From NCBI GenBank assembly GCA_038062895.1, contig JBBTWJ010000006.1, forward strand, positions 48,862-112,861: 64,000 nt of DNA, read 5' to 3'. The notes below the pieces were generated by a model. It searched no databases. It had not been told where the DNA came from and worked only from the letters and a program-made list of their open reading frames with translations. This document shows positions 2,242 to 38,817 of the stretch, one piece after another. Numbering within the stretch: the first letter of the stretch is position 1; each line of letters opens with the position of its first letter. Origin of the DNA: Patescibacteria group bacterium. GTDB lineage: Bacteria; Patescibacteriota; Microgenomatia; UBA10105; UBA927. A program made the translations under genes and the position numbers.

Positions 2242-3274
2242 GAAACTCTCCTAATCTTACGATCTCCTCTTGGAGCTCAACCCCAAACTGCTCTTTCACT
2301 TTCCCACGGGCCAGCTCAATCAATTCTATCACGTCGGCGGCTGTAGCATGGCCGGTATTGATGATGAAATTCGCATGGACAGACGATATTTGGGCGTCTC
2401 CGACTGATGTTCCTTTGAGTCCTGCATGATCCACAAGAAATCCGGCAGAAGTCGTATGGTCAGGTGTCGCCGCTGTCATTGCCTCAGCGGAAGTGATATT
2501 TCTGAACGTACACCCAGGACTTTTGACGCCCTGCGGTTGGCTTTCCCTACGATAGGCAATACTCTGGTTAGCGACACTCCACAGCTCATCTTTGTCTCCG
2601 GGGACAAGGGCAAATACCACCCGAAGAACGATGTCACCGGTTTTTTGGATGCTACTCGTATCGTAGGCGAAGTGAAAATATGAACGGTCAACTATCTTCA
2701 TTTCGCTTTTCGCGGTCAATATGGTCGCCTGATATACCGCATCACCGACGTAGGTTACGGGCATAGAGAGCGTCCCAAAATAACGTCTTCGATTATTTTG
2801 GGTTACGATCCCTTGTGCCGCATCTTTTGATGCGGCCTTCGTCCATTTAGAGTTCATAAATATTGCTCCACCGACCGTTCCGGGTAACCCAAGATGCGCT
2901 TCAAGCCCTCCAAGGCCTTCTTCGACCGTAAAACGGACGAGCTTATTAAAGACAACACCTGAATCAACTTCAACAAATACTGACCCTTTCGCCTCACCAC
3001 CTTCAACCTTCCCCTTCATGCCACGAATAGTGATCGTACTCGTATTATTTTTGATCACCAGTCCCCGGACCCCTTCATCCCCGATGAGAATATTTGTTCC
3101 TCCTCCTAGTATTGTTATCGGTAACCCTGCTTCCCGCGCTTGGATGACTGCCTCCACGATTTCTTTAACACTTCCCGCCTCATAAAAAAATTCCGCCGGT
3201 CCGCCAATCTTAAAGGTTGTATACGGGGAAAGTGAAACATCTTTTTTAAAATTCATAGGATTGATCTGGCCCAT
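2234..3274 (-). CDS. murB: UDP-N-acetylenolpyruvoylglucosamine reductase (FAD-binding); probable true start at internal Met (3256) giving ATGA overlap with murC stop
   Basis: 346 aa; SLSPYTTFKIGGPAEFF...ILGGGTNIL MurB FAD-binding motifs; adjacent to murA/murC. Confidence 0.85.
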   Translation of the reverse strand: MGQINPMNFKKDVSLSPYTTFKIGGPAEFFYEAGSVKEIVEAVIQAREAGLPITILGGGTNILIGDEGVRGLVIKNNTSTITIRGMKGKVEGGEAKGSVFVEVDSGVVFNKLVRFTVEEGLGGLEAHLGLPGTVGGAIFMNSKWTKAASKDAAQGIVTQNNRRRYFGTLSMPVTYVGDAVYQATILTAKSEMKIVDRSYFHFAYDTSSIQKTGDIVLRVVFALVPGDKDELWSVANQSIAYRRESQPQGVKSPGCTFRNITSAEAMTAATPDHTTSAGFLVDHAGLKGTSVGDAQISSVHANFIINTGHATAADVIELIELARGKVKEQFGVELQEEIVRLGEFHG

Positions 3275-4539
3275 TGATAAATATCTCCGGCACCCATAAA
3301 CACGATCACATCATCGGCGGTGAGTTCTTTTTCCAGCCATCGGGAGACATCCTGTCGTAAAGGTGCATAGATTCCACCCAACTTCTGGACAAGTCCTTCT
3401 ACTTTTTGCGCTTCCCGCGCCGACGCATAGATATCCGTCACAAGGGTGATATCCGCCAACGCAAGCGCCCGAACGAAATCAGGCAGTAATGCGTTCGTCC
3501 GTGAGTATGTATGCGGCTGAAACACAACGACGAGGCGTTTCTTGGGATACATTTCGCGAAATGCTGCTATCGTTGATTCAATTTCTTTAGGGTGATGGGC
3601 ATAATCGTCGTAGATGAGTGCTCCGCGCACTTCTCCTAATTTCTCAAACCTTCGCTTTGTGCCTCCAAACCGCTCAAGACCCTGTTTTATGACATTCCAA
3701 GCAATTCCAATTCTTTCGCACGCCGCGGCCGCTGCTGCAGCGTTGAGCATATTATGCCTGCCCAAAACTTGAAGCTTCAGTCCACTTATTTCTTTTGACA
3801 GACCGAATTTCACCACGTTTTCCCCCTTGGATAAAACGGAACTCGCTGGATCATCTGCGTTCATGATCGTAAGCTCGCTCTGTTTTTGCAGTGCCACAAA
3901 TGCTTGTTGAACATGAGCAAGATCTGTATAGACATCAGGATGATCATAATCAATATTTGTCACCACCAAAACGTCCGGCTTGTGCCAGAGAAAACGGGGT
4001 GTCGCGTCATGCCCTGGGTCTGTCACATACTCATCTGCTTCTGCGATAAACCAGTCTCCCTTCCCCGCGTGCCCGGCGGTACCCAGTCCACGGATAGAAC
4101 CACAGCCGACTGCATACGAAGGATCTAAGTCCGCCTCAACGAGAATCGTCGCAATCATGGCAGCAGTTGTTGTCTTGCCATGACTGCCCGCAATACTTAT
4201 CTGGTGTTTCCCCTCCATGACAAGCCCCAACGCCTGACCATGAGGAAGCACCGAAATAGCATGCTCTTTTGCATACATCACCTGCGGATTATCCCGTCCA
4301 CCATGTGCGCCGGTATAGACTACAACATCCGGCTTGAACGCGGCGAGGTGAGACGAATCAAATCCTACATGGATATCAACGTGCGCCTTTTTAAGCTCTT
4401 CATCTGTGGGAAATTCTTCCCCTACGTCACTTCCTGCGACCGACTTTCCGGCATCTTTGGCCCAAATCGCAAGTGCTGCCATAGCAACGCCTTTAATACC
4501 GACCAAATATATCCGCTTTGATTGTTGAATATGGTTCAT
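3253..4539 (-). CDS. murC: UDP-N-acetylmuramate--L-alanine ligase
   Basis: 428 aa; YLVGIKGVAMAALA N-terminal MurC domain, Mur-ligase P-loop GSHGKTTT, C-terminal Mur ligase domain. Confidence 0.85.
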   Translation of the reverse strand: MNHIQQSKRIYLVGIKGVAMAALAIWAKDAGKSVAGSDVGEEFPTDEELKKAHVDIHVGFDSSHLAAFKPDVVVYTGAHGGRDNPQVMYAKEHAISVLPHGQALGLVMEGKHQISIAGSHGKTTTAAMIATILVEADLDPSYAVGCGSIRGLGTAGHAGKGDWFIAEADEYVTDPGHDATPRFLWHKPDVLVVTNIDYDHPDVYTDLAHVQQAFVALQKQSELTIMNADDPASSVLSKGENVVKFGLSKEISGLKLQVLGRHNMLNAAAAAAACERIGIAWNVIKQGLERFGGTKRRFEKLGEVRGALIYDDYAHHPKEIESTIAAFREMYPKKRLVVVFQPHTYSRTNALLPDFVRALALADITLVTDIYASAREAQKVEGLVQKLGGIYAPLRQDVSRWLEKELTADDVIVFMGAGDIYQWARSIL

Positions 4540-6452: not shown

Positions 6453-8126
6453 CTACTGTGGTGCAATGCCGTAATATGCGAATAGATCGCGCGCGATACC
6501 GAAGAAAAGCGGCGCTGCGGTTTCTGACCCCCAGGGACTGGATGTGGGCTCCCGAAGCGTCACAAGGATAATAAACTTTGGATCATCAGCTGGTGCAAAC
6601 CCTATGAATGATGCTATCGTTTTTTTGTTATCATAGTGGCCAGCGACAGGAATCTGTGCTGTCCCGGTCTTTCCGGCTATTCTATACCCTTTTGGTTTTG
6701 CCCATTGAGCCTCACCGCGATCAACCGCCGCGATCATCATCTCCGTCATAATCCGCGCCGTCGCCGGGGAGATTGCGGATCGTGTCTTTTTCGACACGAT
6801 CGGTACGACTCTCCCTGATCCATCACGAATCTCTTTGACTATCCTGGGCTCGACGAGCTGACCGCCATTGGCAATAGCTCCGACCGCCCGGATCATTTGG
6901 ATAGGGGTAACGGCGATGCCCTGCCCAAATGACGCAGTAGCCAGGTCTATATCTTTCCAATCACTATCATCGCGTATACTCGCCGGCACCTCTTCCTGAA
7001 GATCGATACCGGTTGGCTCACCAAATCCAAACTTATGAATCGCCTGAAGCATCCCTTCCTTGCCGAGTTTATTCTGTACAAACACCATGCCAACATTTGA
7101 CGAATGTACGAGCACATCGGTCATTGAGATGATGCCGCGGTATTTTTCATCCCACGTCCGGATAAAATACTCACCTACCCGCACCGCCCCTGTTTCTTCG
7201 GCCATTGTTGTTGACTTCACCACGTTTCGATCTAACCCCATTGCCATCACCAGCACCTTGAACGTAGATCCCGGCTCAAACGTGCTGGCTACGATCGGAT
7301 TTTTATATACTTCCTTGGGAAATTCACCGAAGTTAGCCGGATCATAACTTGGGAAGGCTGCCATGCCTAAAATACCACCGGTTTTTGGATCCATAACGAC
7401 GATCGATCCCTCTTTAGCACCGTATTTGGCTATCCCCGCCAATAACCGGTGCTCAATGATCCGCTGGATCGAACGGTCTAACCACAACACTAAATTTCTC
7501 CCATCTTCCGGCTCAATCCGGCGCGTATCACCTACTAGAATCGGAGCCCCACGGACATCCTTTTCAAGCTGCAGCATCCCATCTTTGCCTCCCAGCTCAC
7601 GCCCGTAATACCCCTCTACCCCAAAATATCCGCGATCTTTGCCGTTTTCATCGCTCCCCACAAATCCTACAATATGAGCGGCCATTGAACTCTCCGGGTA
7701 CATACGCTTAGATTCCTTTTCAAATCCTAAACCATTCAGCTTCAAGTCTTTCAGTTGTGTAACGCGGGCAGATTCTACTTTGTGAGCTAGAGGAACCCAA
7801 ACACGATCAGGTTGTGACAGGATACTCACTATATCTTTTCCATCCATTCCCAATAACGATGAAATACTCGCCGCAAATGACGGCATATTTGCAATTTTTC
7901 TGGGCTCGGCGTAGACCAAATACGCGGATTGATTTAACACTAACGGTTTACCGTCAGAGGCCAGGATCGCACCCCGCTGCGCAGGCAGATTAAACGTAAG
8001 GTAATACTGTGATGCAGCCTCAAGTCGAAGGGACGAGGAGCGTATGACTTGCCAATGAAAAAGCCGTGCCACCATCAGGCCATAGAGAACAACAAAAAAA
8101 GAAAACACTATCCAAATACGTACCAT
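6453..8126 (-). CDS. ftsI: penicillin-binding protein 2 / FtsI-type peptidoglycan D,D-transpeptidase
   Basis: 557 aa; N-terminal TM anchor; transpeptidase motifs STFK, SSN, KTGT present. Confidence 0.9.
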   Translation of the reverse strand: MVRIWIVFSFFVVLYGLMVARLFHWQVIRSSSLRLEAASQYYLTFNLPAQRGAILASDGKPLVLNQSAYLVYAEPRKIANMPSFAASISSLLGMDGKDIVSILSQPDRVWVPLAHKVESARVTQLKDLKLNGLGFEKESKRMYPESSMAAHIVGFVGSDENGKDRGYFGVEGYYGRELGGKDGMLQLEKDVRGAPILVGDTRRIEPEDGRNLVLWLDRSIQRIIEHRLLAGIAKYGAKEGSIVVMDPKTGGILGMAAFPSYDPANFGEFPKEVYKNPIVASTFEPGSTFKVLVMAMGLDRNVVKSTTMAEETGAVRVGEYFIRTWDEKYRGIISMTDVLVHSSNVGMVFVQNKLGKEGMLQAIHKFGFGEPTGIDLQEEVPASIRDDSDWKDIDLATASFGQGIAVTPIQMIRAVGAIANGGQLVEPRIVKEIRDGSGRVVPIVSKKTRSAISPATARIMTEMMIAAVDRGEAQWAKPKGYRIAGKTGTAQIPVAGHYDNKKTIASFIGFAPADDPKFIILVTLREPTSSPWGSETAAPLFFGIARDLFAYYGIAPQ

Positions 8127-8420
8127 TTAAGGTTGAAGGTGAAACGCCACGTCTTGAGCGCCGATAGTGATGACCGGAGGACTCGAAATAAATCCTAAGG
8201 CTTTGGATTTATCTTCGATGGTAAGAAGAGATGAAAGCGAAGCAACTTTTTCCTGCAACAACTGATTTTCTTCCTGGAGGGTATCTATGGACCGATCGAT
8301 CTGGGAAACCTTTTTGCCAAATCCAGCAAGCTCGTTGGTCACAAGAATCTCCACAACAAGCAATATGACCACAAGAAAGGGAAGAATTCGTATGCCTGAT
8401 CGAATAAACCGTATCATCAT
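8127..8420 (-). CDS. ftsL: cell division protein FtsL-like (small bitopic membrane protein with coiled coil)
   Basis: 97 aa; TM segment followed by leucine-rich coiled coil (DTLQEENQLLQEKVASL); located between rsmH and ftsI as in canonical dcw clusters. Confidence 0.6.
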   Translation of the reverse strand: MMIRFIRSGIRILPFLVVILLVVEILVTNELAGFGKKVSQIDRSIDTLQEENQLLQEKVASLSSLLTIEDKSKALGFISSPPVITIGAQDVAFHLQP

Positions 8421-9292
8421 AGCTTTTGAGCAATCCGTAATTTTGCACTTCGTGACCGAACATTCATATACTTCTCGGTATCACTTGGCGTCAGGGGCCG
8501 CTTATTTATTGACCGTAAACCAAGTTGCACTATTTCCCGTTTCACGATCCGATCTTCAAGAGAATGGTAGCTTAATGCTGCAATCCGCCCTCCTGACCCT
8601 AACACCATTACTGCGCCGGGTAACCCTTCTTTCAGTGCGCCAAGTTCATCGTTGACCACTATCCGTAATGCCTGGAATACCCGTGCAAGCGTGCTCATCC
8701 TTTCTCGTGCGTCGCCCATTACCTCATCGACCACCCCAACCAAATCTCCCACCGTTGTCACAGACTTTACATGACGGGTGCGGACAACAGCACGAGCAAT
8801 TGACCGAGCCAACTTTTCTTCACCATATGTTGCAAATATTTCATATAATTCTTCTTCAGATAATTTTTTGATATATTCTGCCGCCGGTGCGCCGCTTTTC
8901 GGATTCATTCTAAGATCCAATGGAGCCTCCAAAAAACGGAAACTGAATCCCCTATCGGGCGTATCGATCTGATGACTCGATACTCCCAAGTCAAATAATA
9001 TCCCATCTGCAGTATCAAACCCTTGCTCTTCCGCTATTTTTCTAATGTCCCGAAAATTCCCCTGTACTATTTTCCAATCCCCGTATTTTATATTTTGTTT
9101 TGAAAATTCAACCGCCTCCGGATCTTGATCAATCCCCAGTAGCCTCCCACCTCTCTTGATAATCTCAATACTGTAACCTCCTCCTCCCACTGTCGCATCG
9201 ATATACGTTCCTCCATCTCGTACCGCTAGCCCGTTTAAGACTTCTTCCACCATCACTGGGACATGAAATTTATTTTTATCTGACATGATCAT
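8417..9292 (-). CDS. rsmH: 16S rRNA (cytosine1402-N4)-methyltransferase RsmH (MraW)
   Basis: Supplied ORF extends to 9334, but the likely start is Met at 9292 (MIMSDKNKFHVPVMVEEV), overlapping the mraZ stop by 1 nt; glycine-rich SAM motif DATVGGGGYS. Confidence 0.85.
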   Translation of the reverse strand: MIMSDKNKFHVPVMVEEVLNGLAVRDGGTYIDATVGGGGYSIEIIKRGGRLLGIDQDPEAVEFSKQNIKYGDWKIVQGNFRDIRKIAEEQGFDTADGILFDLGVSSHQIDTPDRGFSFRFLEAPLDLRMNPKSGAPAAEYIKKLSEEELYEIFATYGEEKLARSIARAVVRTRHVKSVTTVGDLVGVVDEVMGDARERMSTLARVFQALRIVVNDELGALKEGLPGAVMVLGSGGRIAALSYHSLEDRIVKREIVQLGLRSINKRPLTPSDTEKYMNVRSRSAKLRIAQKL

Positions 9293-9684
9293 CAGAGATT
9301 CTTCGCATACTCTTCCCAACGAATACGATCCCAAATCTCAAAATGATCACCCGCGCCTATCACCATGATCTCCCGAGCAATGGAAGCGTAATCCTTGAGC
9401 TGGGCAGGCAAAAGTATACGACCAAGTTTATCTATCTCCGACTTTTGGGCCCCGGCGAACATATATCGCCGGATTTTTCTTCCCTCCTCATTCGTGACCG
9501 GCGTGTCAAGGTGCTTGGCAGCTTCACGCTCCCAACTTTCACGGTCAAACCCAAAAATACACGGTTCAAATCCTTTCGCAAGTACCAGTTCCCGCTCTTC
9601 TATCTCTTGTCGAATCTTTCTAGGGAGCGTCACTCTGCCCCGATCGTCTAAACTATGGTCGTATTCCCCAAGGAAAAGCTTCAT
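9292..9684 (-). CDS. mraZ: division/cell wall cluster transcriptional repressor MraZ
   Basis: 130 aa; MKLFLGEYDHSLDDRGRVTLPRKIRQEIEE with duplicated DXXXR MraZ motifs; first gene of the operon. Confidence 0.85.
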   Translation of the reverse strand: MKLFLGEYDHSLDDRGRVTLPRKIRQEIEERELVLAKGFEPCIFGFDRESWEREAAKHLDTPVTNEEGRKIRRYMFAGAQKSEIDKLGRILLPAQLKDYASIAREIMVIGAGDHFEIWDRIRWEEYAKNL

Positions 9685-9701
9685 GCTTCTAATCTACCAC
9701 T

Positions 9702-9746
9702 TCTTCCCATTAATATCCATATTGTCCCATATTTCACGGACTGTCA
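9702..9746 (-). promoter_or_regulatory. mraZ promoter with MraZ-box direct repeats
   Basis: Minus strand reads TTGACA (9746-9741), 17 nt, CAATAT (9723-9718), then three direct repeats TGGGAcaata/TGGATattaa/TGGGAagaag with exact 10-nt periodicity (9728-9702) overlapping the -10 and 5'UTR, resembling known MraZ operator architecture. Confidence 0.5.
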
Positions 9747-9833
9747 AGGGGTCATTTCACAACCCCGCGAGTTTTCACAAAAACTTGACAAAACGTGTTG
9801 AGAGAGAGAGAATACAGTTCGAATGCTCTAACT

Positions 9834-10172
9834 ATGACGCAAGTAACACCTGAAGCAAAAGTCGGTTTTCAACAACCACAAATACCACAGGACGATTGGG
9901 TTGCACTAATGTATCAAGAATACGGACTTGGTTTAACTCCATCATTAGAAAAAATCGAACCAAAAGCTACAGAATTTCTCGCTGATATTAGAACCGCGCT
10001 CAAAGGAGCGGAGTTGGTATTAGGGAGACGCGTGGATGGCAGTATAGAGAAAGAACCCGATGTTTTACCAATACTGACGACTCCGGGTTTGTCTGGGACC
10101 CAGCGTTTCGGACTCTTATTAATGCAAAAAGAGATAGAAAAAGCACAAGCTACTGGTCACGCTTCCGAATAA
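9834..10172 (+). CDS. hypothetical protein (divergent from mraZ)
   Basis: ORF 9795-10172; first in-frame Met with plausible context at 9834 (MTQVTPEAK...); no recognisable domain. Confidence 0.35.
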   Translation: MTQVTPEAKVGFQQPQIPQDDWVALMYQEYGLGLTPSLEKIEPKATEFLADIRTALKGAELVLGRRVDGSIEKEPDVLPILTTPGLSGTQRFGLLLMQKEIEKAQATGHASE

Positions 10173-10252
10173 TATTGCTTCCTAACTGTTCTAGAGGTCA
10201 TATTCCCTGAAGAACTGGCTTTTCTTATCAGAAACGTTGGTAAAACAATTGA

Positions 10253-10279
10253 AGGGATCAATTTGCCTGCGGCCGCAAA
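10253..10279. repeat. degenerate half-copy of the 40-bp palindrome found at 11106-11145
   Basis: agggatcaatttgcctgcggccgcaaa matches 25/27 with agggatcaatttacttgcggccgcaat at 11106-11132; overlaps the stop codon and last codons of the PaaX-like gene. Confidence 0.6.
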
Positions 10280-11079
10280 GATTTTGACACCGATAGAAGT
10301 TGAGATTTAACGAGCGCGTTGGCTTTATCCCCCTTCCACCACGGCGGAAGAAGAGCAAACGGGAGTTGCGGATCGTCATTTAAAATCGCAAGGCAACGGA
10401 TCAATGCAAAATGATCAATGCCATCGAGTTCTTCCACGGAAGACAACCACTTTTCATATCGATCATTAAGATTTTCGAGTTTGTAGACCCGAACCAAAAG
10501 TGCCCGAAGGTCTTCCTCGCCAACTGCACCGTCTTTACCCAAATCAGAAACGATGACCGTTCCGGATAACTCTTTTTCGTCGACAAATGACCGAACAAGG
10601 TCTATAGGATTGTATGGTGTAATCCAAACCGACTCTTGTAGCATGGCACAACCAATTCTCCTAAGGAACTCCCTGAGCAGCTCCCGGTCAATCTTTCTGC
10701 TTTCGGGTATATCATAGGTCACCAAATGCATCCGTCCATCCCACGTACGCTTGTCATCGTATTGTGGAATAATCGAAGCTAGCCGCAACTTTCCTTTCCC
10801 CGTAATCTCCGGCAGCGCATTTCGCCGACGTGTCTTTATCCATCCGTTACGCCGAGCCATCTTAAGTGCATTCTTGATGACATCATAGTTAACCTGGTAT
10901 AAATAATGATCTGCTGCAATTTGCGCCCGCCACACCTGACCGGAGGTAGATTGTGGAAGACCAACTTCTCCCATATAAACTACGGTCCACAATGCCAAGT
11001 CGACGGCATGAGAAAATAATCCTTCTGCCAAGGCAAGAGCCGCTCTACTCATAGCTCTCGTAATACCTTTCTTTCTCAT
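10258..11079 (-). CDS. PaaX-like putative transcriptional regulator with Cas2-like core motif
   Basis: 273 aa; central segment HLVTYDIPESRKIDRELLREFLRRIGCAMLQESVWITP matches the Cas2/PaaX-type fold signature (VTYDI...R...LQxSVW); flanked by the palindrome and its partial copy. Confidence 0.5.
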   Translation of the reverse strand: MRKKGITRAMSRAALALAEGLFSHAVDLALWTVVYMGEVGLPQSTSGQVWRAQIAADHYLYQVNYDVIKNALKMARRNGWIKTRRRNALPEITGKGKLRLASIIPQYDDKRTWDGRMHLVTYDIPESRKIDRELLREFLRRIGCAMLQESVWITPYNPIDLVRSFVDEKELSGTVIVSDLGKDGAVGEEDLRALLVRVYKLENLNDRYEKWLSSVEELDGIDHFALIRCLAILNDDPQLPFALLPPWWKGDKANALVKSQLLSVSKSLRPQAN

Positions 11080-11105
11080 CTATTCCACAATAGCACATCA
11101 TTTCT

Positions 11106-11145
11106 TAGGGATCAATTTACTTGCGGCCGCAATTAAATTGATCCC
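11106..11145. promoter_or_regulatory. 40-bp near-perfect palindrome (candidate operator) centred on GCGGCCGC
   Basis: agggatcaattta-c-ttgcggccgcaa-t-taaattgatccct: 13-nt arms plus a 12-nt palindromic core, 38/40 symmetric; lies 27 bp upstream of the PaaX-like start and in the divergent region with the histidine phosphatase gene. Confidence 0.6.
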
Positions 11146-11171
11146 TTTAGTCTCATAGAATATCCACACAT

Positions 11172-11200
11172 AGAATATCTTCACTGCACCACGATATAAT
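11172..11200 (+). promoter_or_regulatory. candidate promoter of histidine phosphatase gene (likely leaderless)
   Basis: Perfect TATAAT at 11195-11200, only 8 nt before ATG 11209; weak -35; direct repeat catagaatat x2 at 11153-11177. Confidence 0.3.
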
Positions 11201-11208
11201 CAGGACGT

Positions 11209-11856
11209 ATGACGACAACATTTATCCTAATCCGGCACGGAGAAACGAGGTGGAATCTACAAAGAAAGTTAATGGGCGTTACCGATATCCCCCTCAACGC
11301 CACAGGAAAAAAGCAGGCGAAAGCGGTTGCCAAGCACCTAGCGTCGTATCCGCTCGACATTATCTTCACATCTCCGCTCACCCGCACACGCCAAACCGCC
11401 CGCATCATCCATAGTTTTCATCCAAACATTTCACTCATAACCAAAAACGATCTCCGAGAGCGTAACTTTGGAATAGCCGAAGGATTCGGATACCAAAACG
11501 CCAATGTCCTCTACCCGCAGCTCATTTACAACGAAACGTGGAAATATCACCATTTCCGGCCTCAAAACGGGGAATCACTTGCAGAGATAGAAAAACGTGC
11601 CGACACCTTCCTCTCATGGGTACTTAATGCATACAAAGGCAAAAAAATCGCCATTATATCTCATGGTACTTTTTTGCGTGTCCTCATCTGTCGCCTTATG
11701 GAGATTCCATTGTTAGACTTCACGAGAAACCATATGGACAATACCGCGATCACGATACTGCAACATACGACCGGCTACGGGGCTACTATCCATGTCGCTA
11801 ACGACACAGCTCATCTTCCTACTCTCGTAAAAAAGGTCGAAAAAAGAAGCAACTAG
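11209..11856 (+). CDS. histidine phosphatase family protein (phosphoglycerate mutase-like)
   Basis: 215 aa; catalytic RHGETRWN motif at N-terminus and downstream H of the His-phosphatase superfamily. Confidence 0.85.
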   Translation: MTTTFILIRHGETRWNLQRKLMGVTDIPLNATGKKQAKAVAKHLASYPLDIIFTSPLTRTRQTARIIHSFHPNISLITKNDLRERNFGIAEGFGYQNANVLYPQLIYNETWKYHHFRPQNGESLAEIEKRADTFLSWVLNAYKGKKIAIISHGTFLRVLICRLMEIPLLDFTRNHMDNTAITILQHTTGYGATIHVANDTAHLPTLVKKVEKRSN

Positions 11857-12320
11857 AGAGGGTATTCTTTTGAGAATTGGCTCTTATTACCGGAGATATT
11901 GGTAAATTCAAGAACCACAGAAACACTCTTGACTCCAGGATGAGGCCTACAGACATTACGGGAACACGTTCCCAAGTAAATATCATCCCGGATAAATGAA
12001 TCTTTCCCCGATACATCAAGCGGCTTGCTGGTCACCCCCTGCACAATTCCCTGACTGTCATAACTAAGTTCATACGCGACCGTCCGCACTTTCCCGCCAA
12101 GACCATTCACTGATAAAACAACCGTATTATCCTTCAGTTTGCTTTTGGTAAGTTCTACGACAATGGCAGGATCTAAAGTTTCCAATGTTTCTACCGGAAC
12201 CTGTTCGTCCACCACCTGTTTAACTTCTGGAGTTGGGGCAAGTGCTTTATATATCACAAATCCCGTCCCAATCAATAAAATCCCTAACGCAGCAACGGCG
12301 ATAATCATCTTATTTTTCAT
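11853..12320 (-). CDS. hypothetical membrane-anchored/secreted protein
   Basis: 155 aa; N-terminal hydrophobic segment MKNKMIIAVAALGILLIGTGFVIY then hydrophilic domain; no recognisable family. Confidence 0.45.
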   Translation of the reverse strand: MKNKMIIAVAALGILLIGTGFVIYKALAPTPEVKQVVDEQVPVETLETLDPAIVVELTKSKLKDNTVVLSVNGLGGKVRTVAYELSYDSQGIVQGVTSKPLDVSGKDSFIRDDIYLGTCSRNVCRPHPGVKSVSVVLEFTNISGNKSQFSKEYPL

Positions 12321-12334
12321 AGTACCTCCTCAAT

Positions 12335-13732
12335 CTATATCATTAACTTGCTCTCAATATATGCTTTGAGCTGCTCAATGCTCACCCGTTCCTGTTTGGT
12401 GGTATCCCGATCCCGCACCGTCACGGTGTCACTTTCCAGCGTATCATAATCGATGGTGATACACCACGGAGTACCGATCTCATCCTGTGCATAATACCGC
12501 TTCCCGATATTCCCCCGATCATCCCAGGCTGTGGATAGTTTCAATGTTAATTTCAGGTGCTTATATACCTCTTGCGCTTTCGCCGTGATCTCCGGCTTGT
12601 TGCGCACCAATGGAAAAACAGCCACCGTATATGGCGATAACCTCGGATGAAGTTTTAGATAAATACGTTCTCCCTCCTCGCGGTATGCATCAAGCAGTAA
12701 AAATAGAAACGTGCGATCGACTCCCCCAGAAGTTTCCACGATCCACGGGATAAATTTTTCTCCGGTTTCTAAATCGGTATACGTGAAATCATGACCGCTG
12801 TATTGCCCATGGCGGGATAAATCCCAATCACCTCTCCAATGGATTCCTTCTCCTTCTTTCCAGCCCATCGGGGTCTTGTACTCAATATCAAAAGCTTTCT
12901 TGGCATAATGAGCAAGCTCATCATCCCGATGCTGACGAAATCTCAAATTATCTTTATCGTTAAATAAGCTTCTGTACCAATTCATTCGTTGTTCCTTCCA
13001 ATACTCATACCATGTATCCATGGCCTTGGGATTGACAAAAAACTGCATATCCCACTGCTCAAATTCCTTGAGTCTCAACATAAATTGGGGATTAGCCACT
13101 TCATTACGAAATGCTTTTCCAATTTGGGCAATTCCAAAGGGAATCTTGGGATGCATGCTGTCTAAAACGTTTTGATAATCGAGGTAAATAGTTTGACATG
13201 CCTCGCCTTTCAAATATGCGCTTTTTTTGTCACCCTCTACCACCCCCAATGACGTTTCTACCATCAAGCTGAACTTTTTTACCTCCCCCAAAATTCCCCC
13301 ATCCGGAGCTTTTTTCCCTTTTAGTAATTTCGAATAAGCCTCAATAACACTGATCCCTTCTTTTTTTGCCGCTGCATCCGCAGACGCGAGTTCTTCTGGG
13401 GAATACATTTCTTCTATCAAGTGATCAGCGCGATACCTCTTGTTGCCCATCGGGCCACCAACGGATTCAACCATCGCATCGGCAAAGCTGCCCACATGCC
13501 CTGACGCTTCCCACACCTTCGGATGAGTAATAATTGTTCCGTCGATAGGAAAAATATTTTCGTGGTCAACCAGCATGAACTCCCAAAAGAGTTTTTTCAT
13601 GTTTTGACGCAGAAGATGCCCCATTGGTCCCATGTCATAAAATCCCGCGATCCCACCATAAATCTCCGAATTAGGATACACAAATCCCCGGCGCTTACAG
13701 AGAGAAACAATTTTTTCCATTACATTTTCCAT
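12335..13732 (-). CDS. glyQS: glycine--tRNA ligase (alpha2 dimeric class II GlyRS)
   Basis: 465 aa; SLCKRRGFVYPNSEIYGGIAGFYDMGPMG and class II aaRS motifs; downstream of glyA in same orientation. Confidence 0.9.
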   Translation of the reverse strand: MENVMEKIVSLCKRRGFVYPNSEIYGGIAGFYDMGPMGHLLRQNMKKLFWEFMLVDHENIFPIDGTIITHPKVWEASGHVGSFADAMVESVGGPMGNKRYRADHLIEEMYSPEELASADAAAKKEGISVIEAYSKLLKGKKAPDGGILGEVKKFSLMVETSLGVVEGDKKSAYLKGEACQTIYLDYQNVLDSMHPKIPFGIAQIGKAFRNEVANPQFMLRLKEFEQWDMQFFVNPKAMDTWYEYWKEQRMNWYRSLFNDKDNLRFRQHRDDELAHYAKKAFDIEYKTPMGWKEGEGIHWRGDWDLSRHGQYSGHDFTYTDLETGEKFIPWIVETSGGVDRTFLFLLLDAYREEGERIYLKLHPRLSPYTVAVFPLVRNKPEITAKAQEVYKHLKLTLKLSTAWDDRGNIGKRYYAQDEIGTPWCITIDYDTLESDTVTVRDRDTTKQERVSIEQLKAYIESKLMI

Positions 13733-36174: not shown

Positions 36175-36189
36175 GGTTTCGTTTTTTTC

Positions 36190-36225
36190 AAGGTACTACC
36201 TTGCGGGATTGCAAGGTAGTACCTT
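36190..36225. repeat. perfect 14-bp inverted repeat hairpin (aaggtactaccttg-cgggattg-caaggtagtacctt)
   Basis: Read directly; lies in the 71-bp gap between the acetyltransferase stop and aminotransferase start; T-run precedes it on plus strand, no U-tract after the stem on the transcribed (minus) strand. Confidence 0.7.
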
Positions 36226-36245
36226 ATGAAATTACCCAAATGACA

Positions 36246-37540: not shown

Positions 37541-38116
37541 TTATATACCAATCAGTTCACGCACTGCATTTTTTACTGCCATCCCGAATGGGGGTATATA
37601 TTTTTTGAGCTTACTTTTGTCTAGCTCTTCTGTATTCCACTCGTGGGAACCATCCGTTCTTTTCCCGAGGGAGATTAAATACAGCATGTCTAAAACAGCT
37701 TTTTCCGGTTCCGCTACATACGTGCCTCCTGCCAAATTGAATCCAAAAAATAATTCCCGTTTTAGTTGAGAATAATCACATTCAACATCCATCAGTGTAA
37801 TTTTTTTTGAATGCCGTGTGGTGGCAAGCGTCAAGTTATACAACCCCTGATTTATGATTCCATACTTAGACAGCGCACTTTCAAAACTGATATAGCTGGG
37901 ATAGTAAAGTTTCGTAGCAAGCTTTTCCACATCGAAAGAATGACCACGCAGCATATACACTCCCCTGGCAACTTTTACTATAGAACCGGAATCCACCAAC
38001 CTCTTTATAGCCGTATTGATATGCACCTCATTGGGAAAAAGCTTTTTCACATCTGCAATATCAAAAACATCCTTCGCAAGTTGTTCTATTTTTTCAATTA
38101 ATATATTTTTTCTCAT
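37541..38116 (-). CDS. AbiEi-family antitoxin-like transcriptional regulator (type IV TA/abortive infection)
   Basis: 191 aa; N-terminal winged-helix-like AbiEi_4 pattern (IKRLVDSGSIVKVARGVYML); translationally coupled (4-nt overlap) with AbiEii-like gene. Confidence 0.65.
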   Translation of the reverse strand: MRKNILIEKIEQLAKDVFDIADVKKLFPNEVHINTAIKRLVDSGSIVKVARGVYMLRGHSFDVEKLATKLYYPSYISFESALSKYGIINQGLYNLTLATTRHSKKITLMDVECDYSQLKRELFFGFNLAGGTYVAEPEKAVLDMLYLISLGKRTDGSHEWNTEELDKSKLKKYIPPFGMAVKNAVRELIGI

Positions 38117-38817
38117 AAAGAAAACTCCTCTAGTATATTACGGTGATTTTTTGGAATGAACGGATTTAACTTATCCATCAATTCTTTTTGGGTATACTTG
38201 AATTCCTTTTTAATCGTAAATATTCTATTCAATTTTTGATGTATATACCATGCGTCAAACAAATCTCTTGGTTCTCTTCTAACTCTTGTCTTGAGTATGC
38301 CTAATTTATCCTCTAGAATAGACTCAATCGTGTAAACTCTTGCGGAAATCTCAAGATTATTAAATGGACTTCGCAGAAGTCCAACAACAGAGACAAAATC
38401 CCTCACGTTTTTATTAATTTCAACTTTAATACCGATGGGAATTGGTTTAAATCCCGTGTCAAACACAATCTTGGCAAATAGTGTATGGTGTTTATCATAT
38501 ATATCTTTCACCCGTGCTTCAGGAATAAGACCAGGTAATTTCTCTATCGCATTCTTGAACGTTGTGTACGGAATACTTTTAATCAAAGAGAAATCTAAAT
38601 CTTCGGAAAATCGAAAAGAGCCGTAGGCCAGACGCAAAGCCGTCCCCCCTTTAAAAACCAAGTCTCTTTCAAATGAAGATCTAAAGAGTACATCCAGTAT
38701 GTACATCTGATAATGCTCTTTGAGAATATTATCGGTAATCGTGGAATGTTGAGCCGCAAATTTCTCAGCCTGGTCCTGTGTTAACATACTATACATAAAT
38801 GTACAGTATCTTGACAC
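38113..38817 (-). CDS. AbiEii/AbiGii-family nucleotidyltransferase toxin (DUF1814)
   Basis: 234 aa (GTG start at 38817, ATG alternatives at 38796/38787); motif FKGGTALRLAYGSFRFSEDLDF characteristic of AbiEii NTases. Confidence 0.7.
   Translation of the reverse strand: MSRYCTFMYSMLTQDQAEKFAAQHSTITDNILKEHYQMYILDVLFRSSFERDLVFKGGTALRLAYGSFRFSEDLDFSLIKSIPYTTFKNAIEKLPGLIPEARVKDIYDKHHTLFAKIVFDTGFKPIPIGIKVEINKNVRDFVSVVGLLRSPFNNLEISARVYTIESILEDKLGILKTRVRREPRDLFDAWYIHQKLNRIFTIKKEFKYTQKELMDKLNPFIPKNHRNILEEFSL

What the first reader, a model, noticed from the sequence alone, without database searches (positions are those of the whole stretch)
10253..11145. PaaX-like regulator with Cas2-type core, preceded by a 40-bp NotI-centred palindrome and followed by a half-copy of the same palindrome
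The 273-aa protein carries the motif LVTYDIPESRK...LQESVW, reminiscent of the Cas2/VapD-like fold core that is also present in PaaX-like regulators, yet no CRISPR array or cas gene is nearby. A 38/40 symmetric palindrome (agggatcaattta c ttgcggccgcaa t taaattgatccct, 11106-11145) sits 27 bp upstream of its start, in an operator-like position, in the divergent region shared with a histidine phosphatase gene. A 25/27 matching left half of the palindrome (10253-10279) overlaps the gene's own stop codon. The gene is thus bracketed by direct repeats of about 27 bp, suggesting either an autoregulated stand-alone module or a small mobile cassette.
Basis: partly seen in the sequence, partly recalled or inferred. 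Interest (0 to 1): 0.6.

Follow-up and report, generated by a model that had tools for sequence, protein, structure and literature searches.

The report
Repressor gene bracketed by its operators
A small regulator gene in an uncultured ultra-small bacterium is flanked on both sides by its own probable 40-base binding site. The same self-bracketing layout recurs in nearly every member of a previously undescribed, multi-copy family of such regulators.

Summary
Window 10258-11079 (-) encodes a 273-aa PaaX-fold protein: a divergent winged helix, a Cas2-like middle domain and a PaaX_C tail. It is neither a CRISPR Cas2 nor a true phenylacetate PaaX.

The palindrome lies at 11107-11146 (19/20 pairs). 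Its arm supplies the -35 box of a promoter whose -10 ends 7 nt before the ATG, so the mRNA is probably leaderless. The "half-copy" is a full second site, 10253-10292: GATCAA-N8-CGGCCG-N8-TTGACA over the stop codon.

This layout is family-wide. In 87% of 79 related loci (35-100% identity, 3-5 paralogs per genome), a locus-specific palindrome occurs both upstream of the start and at the stop, against 5% in mismatched controls. Palindrome type tracks protein clade. It is not a REP-like repeat: there are only two copies in 64 kb. Solo copies sit in membrane glycosyltransferase-like genes elsewhere.

The best reading is an autorepressor with a promoter operator plus an auxiliary 3' operator. The mobile-cassette idea is partly right historically. 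Relatives have empty p155-mraZ sites, and a decayed 54-nt copy of the p155 gene tail follows the 3' site. Recent mobility is not supported.

The parts
10258..11079 (-). Gene for a 273-aa PaaX-like regulator: divergent N-terminal winged helix, Cas2-like middle domain (residues ~111-177) and PaaX_C-like tail with the DDPQLPFxLLPxWWKG motif.
   Evidence: ORF. Pfam and NCBIfam hits. AF2 model and Foldseek top hit 8A39. Family conservation.
11107..11146 (.). O1, a 40-bp palindrome (GATCAA-N8-CGGCCG-N8-TTGATC inside AGGGATC...GATCCCT) and the predicted cognate operator. It overlaps the -35 box of the gene's promoter.
   Evidence: 19/20 pairs. The same position and type are conserved in orthologs and paralogs.
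10253..10292 (.). O2, a second and less symmetric copy of the operator (GATCAA-N8-CGGCCG-N8-TTGACA) lying over the stop codon. Its centre is 854 bp from the centre of O1. It encodes the variable C-terminal tail (...SLRPQAN*).
   Evidence: (D2, I1). The family-wide start/stop pairing is shown. It does not form a stable RNA hairpin (z -0.54).
11087..11115 (-). Predicted promoter of the regulator gene: -35 TTGATC (11115-11110), a 17-nt spacer with TGc, and -10 TATTGT (11092-11087). Seven nt then precede the ATG, which implies a leaderless mRNA.
   Evidence: Read from the sequence. The same geometry is conserved in 15 loci of this group and, in shifted register, in two other groups. It scores 8/12, below the 9/12 threshold of the consensus scan.
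10191..10244 (-). X', a decayed orphan copy of the last 17 codons plus stop of the p155 gene (FTNVSDKKSQFFREYDL*), starting 8 nt after O2. It is a scar of an old insertion or duplication.
   Evidence: D1 (54 nt, 70% identical to 11853-11906). Also present after O2 in L003, L008, L050, L011 and L113.
11853..11906 (-). X, the functional 3' end of the 155-aa gene (p155, 11853..12320), which is the source or partner of the X' duplicate.
11209..11856 (+). Histidine phosphatase gene divergent from the regulator gene. It is variable cargo at this locus: upstream of the regulator here, downstream in L113, and absent in L003, L114 and L115.
   Evidence: Pfam His_Phos_1 at 3.8e-54. Contexts.
9795..10172 (+). 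125-aa ORF of unknown function, convergent with the regulator gene and lying between X' and mraZ. It is present only in the closest relatives.
   Evidence: 68% identical in L003, L007 and L096. No Pfam hit. A promoter-like site lies at 9785-9813.
9292..9684 (-). mraZ, the first gene of the dcw cluster (mraZ-rsmH-ftsL-ftsI-mur). The regulator cassette sits between p155 and this gene.

Best explanation
The gene encodes a PaaX-fold transcription repressor. It belongs to a multi-paralog subfamily found in Gottesmanbacteria and other Microgenomates (Patescibacteria) that has not been described in the searched literature. The ~40-bp palindrome is its cognate operator.

Shown:
- The protein has the PaaX fold.
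- Two copies of the same palindrome flank the gene.
- The same start/stop pairing, with locus-specific sequences that follow protein clades, holds across the family.
- The palindrome overlaps a conserved -35/-10 arrangement placed 5-10 nt before the start codon.

Inferred:
- A dimer binds O1 and blocks RNA polymerase at the gene's own leaderless promoter, giving autorepression as E. coli PaaX does at Px.
- A second dimer binds O2 over the stop codon. O2 then acts either as an auxiliary operator (cooperative binding through an ~850-bp DNA loop enclosing the gene) or as a roadblock that insulates the cassette from neighbouring transcription.
- An unknown small ligand, not phenylacetyl-CoA pathway related, probably releases the protein.

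Solo copies of the same palindrome types sit inside or between membrane glycosyltransferase-like (GT-C / YfhO-like) genes of related organisms. They point to a small trans regulon in cell-envelope glycosylation.

The O1-gene-O2 unit behaves as a cassette over evolutionary time. It was inserted between p155 and mraZ in this lineage, and it is accompanied by a duplicate of the p155 3' end.
For: Protein:
- Pfam PaaX_M 60.5 bits and PaaX_C 24.1 bits, both above cutoff; all 22 sampled members hit PaaX_M and 21 hit PaaX_C.
- Foldseek top hits are PaaX 8A39 (1.3e-9, 287 columns), Rv0674 3KFW and 3L09, followed by Cas2 proteins for the middle domain.
- The profile-versus-PDB search aligns the recognition helix/wing region and the DPxLPxxLLPxxWxG motif to PaaX.

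Operator:
- O1 has 19/20 complementary pairs.
- Orthologs carry lineage-specific palindromes at the same -47 position, and both copies change together: centre GCGGCCGC, CGACCG or GCTATAGC.
- 87% of 79 non-redundant loci share >=16/20 nt between their own upstream region and their own stop region, against 5% for mismatched loci.
- 50 loci have both copies on the same centre with >=27/44 identity; 40 of those 50 have identical centre hexamers; positions +/-3 and +/-11-13 are conserved family-wide.
- Centre type follows the protein tree.

Promoter overlap and leaderless geometry hold in three register groups.

O2 is not an RNA hairpin. It is not consistently in front of a co-directional gene: the downstream gene is convergent in 43 loci and co-directional in 31.

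The palindrome is not a dispersed repeat. Only two copies occur in 64 kb, and a third copy occurs in 3/50 loci.

Solo trans copies:
- L104/L108 match O1 at 37/40 and are identical to each other although the flanking proteins are 82-89% identical.
- L105 carries the L008 type, and L097 carries the L100 type from the same metagenome.
- All lie in membrane-protein or YfhO/PTPS-related gene clusters.
- The L105 copy lies in a variable loop with no length change relative to homologs, so it is not an inserted footprint.

Precedent: E. coli PaaX binds TGATTC-N27-GAATCA (39 bp) and represses its own Px promoter (review PMC9493321).
Against: - No binding experiment exists; the protein-palindrome link is purely comparative.
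- The Pfam N-terminal PaaX DNA-binding domain model is not matched by any member, and the N-terminal part of the AF2 model has low confidence (pLDDT 37-60).
- The window's promoter scores only 8/12 to consensus and was not called by the scan.
- A regulator whose sites mostly flank itself has no obvious output. The solo sites come from other organisms' contigs and were not shown to share a genome with the matching regulator.
- Looping or roadblock roles for O2 are untested guesses.
- The flanking duplication and the empty sites fit a mobile-element history as well.
- The Cas2-type Asp (D123) is >=95% conserved, which a purely structural dimerisation domain would not obviously need.
Confidence: 0.6

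Rival explanations
1. Selfish or mobile cassette. The two palindromes are the ends of a ~0.9-kb element, and the wHTH-Cas2-like protein is its end-binding protein or nuclease. That would resemble an IS, whose transposase promoter lies in the left end and whose stop codon lies in the right end. The protein would promote excision and integration next to the 3' ends of genes, with a long (~54-nt) target duplication.
For: - The architecture is IS-like: the promoter is inside the left palindrome and the stop codon is inside the right one.
- The unit, not the flanks, is what recurs at many unrelated loci such as radA, cysS, nusG/secE and YfhO-like genes.
- Empty p155-mraZ sites occur in L114 and L115, and a third arrangement occurs in L113.
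- Direct ~54-nt duplications of the upstream gene's 3' end flank the unit in two independent groups: the dcw group and L082 (83% identity).
- X' equals X over 34 nt in L050.
- The Cas2-type Asp is conserved.
Against: - No known transposase or recombinase domain was found.
- No near-identical copies occur within a genome; paralogs are 38-65% identical.
- Each orthogroup keeps its genomic position across 60-100% identity.
- Flank duplications were detectable in only 2 (perhaps 3) orthogroups.
- The solo copy in L105 is not an insertion relative to homologs.
- 54-nt duplications can also arise from single-crossover recombination of incoming DNA.
Confidence: 0.12
2. The palindromes act at the RNA level. 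They would form hairpins at the 5' and 3' ends of the mRNA, serving as stabilisers or terminators, or as targets of a Cas2/VapD-like RNase activity of the protein.
For: O1 folds as a very stable hairpin (-22.7 kcal/mol, z -6.4). Cas2 and VapD relatives include RNases (one search hit list).
Against: - O2 in the window does not fold better than shuffles (z -0.54), yet it keeps the centre and outer hexamers.
- The conserved promoter geometry puts the transcription start at the ATG, so O1 would not be transcribed from the gene's own promoter.
- Perfect even palindromes with conserved bases at fixed positions are typical of sites bound by dimeric proteins.
- No terminator-like T tracts and no Rfam match were found.
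Confidence: 0.04
3. Generic REP/MITE-like palindromic repeat unrelated to the gene.
For: Palindromes with a GC-rich centre in an AT-rich genome resemble REP elements. A few solo copies exist in other contigs.
Against: - Only two copies occur in 64 kb, even allowing 10/32 mismatches, and only three 40-nt palindromes of any kind occur in the window.
- Each paralog has its own sequence, paired at its own start and stop.
- A third copy occurs in only 3/50 loci.
Confidence: 0.01
4. A genuine CRISPR-associated Cas2 (as several homologs are named in NCBI), or a genuine phenylacetate-pathway PaaX.
For: TIGR01573 cas2 scores 26.4 against a cutoff of 24.5. PADLOC Cas2 models score up to 3e-7. Homologs are named 'CRISPR-associated endonuclease Cas2'. 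PaaX domains are present.
Against: - Only the first ~40 positions of the Cas2 models match, inside a 273-aa three-domain protein.
- No array and no cas1 are in the window, and none appears among the called neighbours of the related loci inspected.
- The TIGR02277 PaaX equivalog scores 62 against a cutoff of 264.55.
- The neighbours are dcw, glyS and other housekeeping genes, not paa genes.
Confidence: 0.02

Closest known systems
PaaX, the phenylacetyl-CoA-responsive repressor of E. coli and Pseudomonas (PDB 8A39; Pfam PaaX_M/PaaX_C; TIGR02277)
   Same: Both have the three-domain fold: wHTH, Cas2-like dimerisation domain and C-terminal helical domain with the DPxLPxxLLPxxWxG motif. Both have a long (~39-40 bp) palindromic operator with widely spaced half-sites, and PaaX represses its own promoter (PMC9493321).
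   Different: Identity is only ~20%, and the equivalog score is far below cutoff. The N-terminal domain is not recognised by Pfam. There are no paa genes nearby. There are 3-5 paralogs per ~1-Mb genome, each with its own operator. A conserved CNNNNG centre exists in addition to the outer arms. A second operator lies over the gene's own stop codon. The Cas2-like YDIPE/LQxSVW motif is retained, whereas E. coli PaaX lacks it.
Repressors with auxiliary operators and DNA looping (lac O1/O2, gal OE/OI, lambda CI OL/OR flanking cI). This comparison rests on established knowledge and was not tested here.
   Same: A primary operator sits at the promoter and a second copy lies hundreds of bp away, sometimes inside coding sequence. 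In lambda the two operator clusters bracket the repressor gene.
   Different: Here the second site is tied to the 3' end of the repressor's own gene in nearly all family members. Tetramerisation and looping are unproven.
Insertion sequences, in which transposase binding to the terminal inverted repeats autoregulates a promoter located in the left end
   Same: A single ORF is framed by two copies of a protein-specific sequence. The promoter lies in the left copy and the stop codon in the right copy. Flanking target duplications and empty sites exist.
   Different: Each end is itself a full palindrome. No transposase fold is present. No multi-copy identical elements occur. Orthologs have long-term positional stability. 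The duplication is ~54 nt, far longer than the 2-15 bp typical of transposition.
Cas2 / VapD
   Same: The beta1-alpha1-beta2 core carries the conserved Asp at the end of beta1 (LVTYDIPE). Foldseek finds many Cas2 structures for residues ~115-200.
   Different: The core is embedded in a PaaX-type regulator. Only half of the Cas2 profile matches. There is no CRISPR context.

Membership tests
PaaX-like regulators (Pfam PaaX_M + PaaX_C architecture) | Central Cas2-like PaaX_M domain above the gathering score | tested here: met
   60.5 bits against a cutoff of 24; 22/22 family members match.
PaaX-like regulators (Pfam PaaX_M + PaaX_C architecture) | C-terminal PaaX_C domain | tested here: met
   24.1 bits against a cutoff of 22, matching only profile positions 49-77; 21/22 members match. 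The DDPQLPFxLLP motif is >=95% conserved.
PaaX-like regulators (Pfam PaaX_M + PaaX_C architecture) | N-terminal winged-helix DNA-binding domain | tested here: inconclusive
   No Pfam hit to the N-terminal PaaX domain in any member. However, the PDB profile alignment covers the PaaX recognition helix and wing, TIGR02277 aligns residues 48-260, and Foldseek aligns 287 columns to 8A39. AF2 confidence is low in this region.
PaaX-like regulators (Pfam PaaX_M + PaaX_C architecture) | Overall fold like a solved PaaX structure | tested here: met
   Foldseek gives 8A39 at E 1.3e-9 (prob 1.0, TM 0.50-0.55) and 3KFW at 1.5e-5. The model's mean pLDDT is only 69.
PaaX proper (TIGR02277 equivalog; phenylacetate catabolon repressor) | Score above the equivalog cutoff | tested here: not met
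   62.2 bits against 264.55.
PaaX proper (TIGR02277 equivalog; phenylacetate catabolon repressor) | Linkage to paa catabolic genes | tested here: not met
   The neighbours are p155, a histidine phosphatase gene, mraZ-rsmH-ftsL-ftsI, glyS and SHMT. Paralogs sit next to a variety of other genes with no shared neighbour.
PaaX proper (TIGR02277 equivalog; phenylacetate catabolon repressor) | Binding released by phenylacetyl-CoA | not testable with these tools
   This needs biochemistry.
CRISPR-associated Cas2 | Full-length Cas2 domain (~90 aa stand-alone protein) | tested here: not met
   Only model positions 2-47 match, within a 273-aa protein. The TIGR01573 score of 26.4 barely passes its 24.5 cutoff, which explains the NCBI name given to homologs.
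CRISPR-associated Cas2 | Adjacent cas1 and CRISPR array | tested here: not met
   No repeat array in the 64 kb. No cas genes among the called neighbours of six related loci.
Insertion sequence / transposon | Recognisable transposase or recombinase | tested here: not met
   Pfam, NCBIfam, PADLOC and PHROGs scans of the protein show none.
Insertion sequence / transposon | Terminal repeats framing the ORF | tested here: met
   O1 and O2 in the window. The same holds in 87% of 79 loci.
Insertion sequence / transposon | Several near-identical copies per genome and variable positions among close relatives | tested here: not met
   One copy in the window. Paralogs within a MAG are 38-65% identical. 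Synteny is conserved within orthogroups. Presence/absence is seen only between relatives whose p155 is ~58-61% identical to the window's.
Insertion sequence / transposon | Target-site duplication | tested here: inconclusive
   ~54-nt direct duplications of the upstream gene's 3' end occur in the dcw group and in L082. None was detectable in most other groups. The length is atypical for transposition.
REP / MITE-like dispersed palindromes | Many dispersed copies per genome | tested here: not met
   Two copies in 64 kb. Rare third copies within +/-3 kb. The whole genome was not available.

The most novel reading that the evidence does not exclude
The O1-gene-O2 unit is a new kind of minimal self-mobilising or self-integrating cassette. 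A wHTH-Cas2-like protein, with its conserved Cas2-type Asp, would recognise its own palindromic ends. It would promote excision and integration beside the 3' ends of genes, leaving ~54-nt target duplications. Solo palindromes would serve as docking sites. This would be a DNA-mobility role for a Cas2-fold protein outside CRISPR.
Probability: 0.06. Interest if true: 0.9.

Novelty: new variant of a known kind. Interest (0 to 1): 0.55.

Why it matters
Almost nothing is known about transcriptional regulation in Patescibacteria (CPR), which have few regulators. This family has several paralogs per ~1-Mb genome. Each paralog comes with a readable, co-evolving 40-bp site written twice next to its own gene.

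That provides three things:
- A ready-made set of cognate protein-DNA pairs from which a recognition code for the poorly understood PaaX fold could be derived.
- A natural source of orthogonal repressor/operator pairs.
- A testable hint that these regulators connect to cell-envelope glycosylation genes.

The work also corrects a recurring database misnaming of these proteins as 'CRISPR-associated endonuclease Cas2'. In addition, it exposes an unusual insertion signature, a duplicated gene tail together with empty sites, that deserves a mechanistic look.

Tried and rejected
- Rfam scan of 8000-13500 at E<=1: no match.
- tRNA/tmRNA scan of the window, to look for integration targets: none.
- PHROGs: no hit.
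- PADLOC: only partial Cas2 hits.
- Consensus promoter/terminator scan: it did not call the proposed promoter (8/12 is below its threshold) and found no terminator at O2.
- O2 as a promoter for downstream or antisense transcription: no -10 hexamer lies at the right spacing in the window (sequence), and the downstream gene orientation is mixed across loci.
- O2 as an RNA hairpin: rejected.
- A second paralog or pseudogene near 41.4-41.8 kb (weak 17-aa tblastn hit plus TTGCCGCCGCAA): this is a methyltransferase-like ORF and the hits are noise.
- A tandem duplication of O1-gene as the origin of O2: the sequence after O2 does not resemble the sequence after O1.
- The solo palindrome in L105 as an excision footprint: rejected, because homologs show no length change at that loop.
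- The flank duplication in L025: too weak to count (E 0.08).
- Literature searches for PaaX with Cas2, with Patescibacteria, or with looping: none found a description of this family. The E. coli PaaX structure paper itself was not in the searchable library.
Full report
**1. What is in the window**

Its arms are 20+20 nt with 19/20 complementary pairs, and it ends 27 nt before the ATG.

A 26-nt match to its left arm plus centre, with 2 mismatches, lies at 10253-10278 across the stop codon at 10258-10260. Shuffles of the window gave none expected. When the 3' copy is aligned on the CGGCCG centre (10270-10275) it proves to be a full-length site. It reads GATCAA-N8-CGGCCG-N8-TTGACA over 10253-10292, compared with GATCAA-N8-CGGCCG-N8-TTGATC in the upstream copy. 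Only the N8 spacers are asymmetric. I call the two sites O1 and O2; their centres are 854 bp apart.

The 64-kb window holds no other copy even at 10/32 mismatches. It also has no second paralog, no CRISPR-like array, no tRNA gene and no Rfam match near the locus.

**2. The protein**

- Pfam gives PaaX_M ('central Cas2-like domain') at 1.7e-16, PaaX_C at 4.8e-5, and a sub-threshold Cas2 hit.
- NCBIfam gives the PaaX equivalog at 62 bits against a cutoff of 264.55. It gives cas2 at 26.4 bits against 24.5, covering only the first half of that model. This explains why several homologs are named 'CRISPR-associated endonuclease Cas2' in NCBI.
- An AF2 model (mean pLDDT 69, N-terminus poor) finds E. 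coli PaaX 8A39 as its best PDB match (1.3e-9, 287 columns). Rv0674 (3KFW) and 3L09 follow, and then many Cas2 structures match the middle domain.
- A family profile aligns to PaaX across the recognition-helix/wing region and the DPxLPxxLLPxxWxG motif.
- Across 79 family members, Y122-D123, Q148, S150 and the DPQLPF core of the DDPQLPFxLLP motif are >=95% conserved. The Cas2-type Asp is therefore kept, unlike in E. coli PaaX.
- No member matches the Pfam N-terminal PaaX domain, so the DNA-binding domain is divergent.

The protein is thus a PaaX-fold regulator. It is neither a true phenylacetate PaaX nor a CRISPR Cas2.

**3. Family and context**

The database search returned 568 relatives, and the named ones are Gottesmanbacteria or Patescibacteria. 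A genome scan gave 80 loci, with 3-5 paralogs per MAG; for example L008/L012/L025/L073 come from one MAG and L011/L022/L052/L055/L085 from another.

One orthogroup, including the window, sits in the order recO-(SHMT)-glyS-p155-(histidine phosphatase)-regulator-mraZ-rsmH-ftsL-ftsI-mur. Other paralogs sit beside radA, cysS, nusG/secE or YfhO-like membrane-protein genes. No neighbour is shared across the family.

**4. The bracketing is a family hallmark**

In every ortholog next to the dcw cluster, a lineage-specific palindrome occurs about 27 nt upstream of the start and again at the stop codon. The two copies change together between lineages, with centre GCGGCCGC, CGACCG or GCTATAGC. In L010 and L011 the 3' copy is itself a good palindrome.

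Across 79 non-redundant loci at 35-100% identity:
- The best 20-mer shared between a gene's own upstream 90 nt and its own stop region is >=16/20 in 87% of loci. It is >=16/20 in 5% of mismatched locus pairs. The medians are 17 and 13.
- Fifty loci have both copies centred identically with >=27/44 identity.
- The centres are CGGCCG (17 loci), CGACCG/CGGTCG (12), CACGTG (8), CTATAG, CGATCG and others.
- C at -3, G at +3, and A/T-rich triplets at +/-11-13 are conserved in both upstream and 3' copies.
- Centre type follows the protein tree; for example there is a CACGTG clade.

The loci include orthologs, so the number of independent groups is nearer a dozen than 79.

**5. Why O1 is an operator**

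In the window the arm of O1 nearest the gene reads TTGATC. It is followed by a 17-nt spacer with TGc, then TATTGT, then 7 nt, then the ATG. The consensus scan did not call this promoter because it scores 8/12.

The geometry is nevertheless conserved in 15 loci of the same register: TTGAC(T/A), 17-18 nt, TAnnnT, 6-8 nt, start codon. In a second group the palindrome sits between a TTGACA -35 box and a -10 box that lies in its other arm. A third group has an intermediate register. In all three the start codon lies 5-10 nt after the -10 box, which implies leaderless mRNAs.

O1 would then not be transcribed from the gene's own promoter. This, together with the failure of O2 to fold (z -0.54, against -6.4 for O1), argues against an RNA-level role. 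E. coli PaaX binds a 39-bp TGATTC-N27-GAATCA site and represses its own promoter (PMC9493321). The operator size and the logic therefore match the fold.

**6. What O2 might do**

The downstream gene is convergent in 43 loci and co-directional in 31. 3' copies often lose the -35 hexamer. O2 is therefore not, in general, an operator for a downstream promoter.

It survives inside the otherwise variable C-terminal coding tail, so selection acts on the DNA. I infer one of two roles: an auxiliary operator giving cooperative binding through an ~850-bp loop enclosing the gene, or a roadblock that insulates the cassette. Neither role has been tested.

**7. Sites elsewhere**

Third copies within +/-3 kb are rare, occurring in 3 of 50 loci. 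A metagenome scan for TCAA-N6-TGCGGCCGCA-N6-TTGA found the expected paired copies in L096 and L100, plus the following solo copies:
- L104 and L108 carry AGGGATCAATTTACTTGCGGCCGCAAATTTATTGATCCCT, which matches O1 at 37/40. The site is identical in both loci although the flanking proteins are 82-89% identical. It lies at the junction of two membrane-protein genes upstream of a YfhO/PTPS-related gene.
- L097 carries an L100-type palindrome from the same metagenome, again at a junction between two membrane-protein genes.
- L105 carries an L008-type palindrome inside a large polytopic membrane-protein gene that lies next to GT2-like and epimerase-like ORFs, an assignment judged by eye from the sequences.

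Alignment of 60 homologs shows that the L105 palindrome occupies a variable loop with no length change. Close homologs keep the same peptide, G-V-N-x-L-A-A-A. The site therefore evolved, or is maintained, in place and is not an inserted footprint. CACGTG-clade paralogs lie directly after YfhO-like genes. Together these results suggest, but do not prove, a small envelope-glycosylation regulon.

**8. Cassette history**

Eight nt after O2 lies a 54-nt, 70%-identical orphan copy (X', 10191-10244) of the last 17 codons plus stop of the p155 gene (X, 11853-11906). X' also follows O2 in L003, L008, L011, L050 and L113. In L050 it is 100% identical to that genome's own X over 34 nt.

An unrelated orthogroup (L082) shows the same pattern. 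A 54-nt, 83%-identical duplicate of the upstream gene's 3' end flanks the O1-gene-O2 unit.

Two Gottesmanbacteria loci (L114, L115) have p155 followed directly by the mraZ promoter, with no palindrome and no X'. L113 has the order p155-O1-gene-O2-X'-histidine phosphatase-mraZ. L001 has an IS inserted beside O1. In the window, nearly all long ORFs in the first 56 kb are on the - strand. The two + strand genes beside the regulator, the phosphatase gene and orf125, are exceptions.

The p155-mraZ gap is therefore a variable spot, and the regulator unit arrived, or was rearranged, as a cassette. Against ongoing mobility:
- There is one copy in the window.
- Paralogs within a genome are 38-65% identical.
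- Orthogroup positions are stable.
- No transposase or recombinase domain is present.

**9. Verdict**

The best-supported model is a PaaX-fold autorepressor whose cognate 40-bp operator is written twice, once at its leaderless promoter and once over its stop codon. This belongs to an undescribed multi-paralog Patescibacteria family in which the self-bracketing layout is the rule.

I rate it a new variant of a known kind. Confidence in the overall model is about 0.6: high for the fold and for the pairing of sites with proteins, moderate for autorepression, and low for the specific role of O2. The most novel reading still open is a self-integrating cassette driven by a Cas2-fold protein. It is unlikely (about 6%) but would be important if true.

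Noticed in passing
window 11154-11183: Two tandem 15-nt direct repeats (CATAGAATATCCACA / CATAGAATATCTTCA) lie between O1 and the -10 box of the histidine phosphatase gene. They may be a binding site for another factor.
   Followed up: no
window 11195-11211: The histidine phosphatase gene has a perfect TATAAT ending 8 nt before its ATG and no Shine-Dalgarno sequence. Leaderless mRNAs may therefore be common in this organism.
   Followed up: no
window 1-56000: Almost all ORFs >=200 aa are on the - strand. The phosphatase gene (11209-11856) and orf125 (9795-10172), which flank the regulator, are among the few + strand genes, consistent with later insertions. No tRNA gene occurs in the whole 64 kb.
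   Followed up: partly
window 36187-36226 and 38777-38816: Two other long palindromes are present: AAGGTACTACCTTGC..GCAAGGTAGTACCTT between genes, and GTGTTAACATACT..AGTATCTTGACAC at the start of the 38113-38817 ORF. They are of a different type from O1/O2 and may be operators or terminators for other factors.
   Followed up: no
L001 2825-3825: In an 87%-identical relative, an IS (DUF772 + DDE_Tnp_1 ORFs) is inserted between the phosphatase gene and O1. O1's arms are remodelled there (GGGGGGAAAAATT..TATTTATTGCCCCC), while O2 keeps the usual sequence.
   Followed up: partly
L104 415-444; L108 6016-6045; L105 1021-1050; L097 6572-6601: Solo copies of regulator-type palindromes lie inside or between membrane-protein genes. 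In L108 these are next to a YfhO/PTPS-related gene, and in L105 the site is inside a large polytopic membrane protein. In L105 the site encodes a variable loop (GVNKLAAAS) with no indel relative to homologs.
   Followed up: partly
L050 (complete chromosome OY969569.1), around 3000-3750: The dcw-adjacent family member appears split or frameshifted, with only residues ~110-253 in one ORF. This may be a pseudogene or a long-read sequencing error. Its X' copy is 100% identical to X over 34 nt, suggesting recent gene conversion or re-duplication.
   Followed up: partly
L019 ~3600; L041 ~4647; L082 ~2624: These three loci have a third copy of the locus-specific palindrome 0.4-1 kb downstream of the gene.
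   Followed up: no
P0256, P0261 (homologs of the L105 membrane protein): These homologs carry large insertions (tens of residues) at exactly the loop that holds the palindrome in L105. The loop may be a hot spot for insertions.
   Followed up: no
homologs P0032, P0043, P0051, P0054, P0082: Public annotations call these 260-290-aa PaaX-fold proteins 'CRISPR-associated endonuclease Cas2'. This is a systematic misnaming caused by a borderline TIGR01573 score on half of the model.
   Followed up: yes
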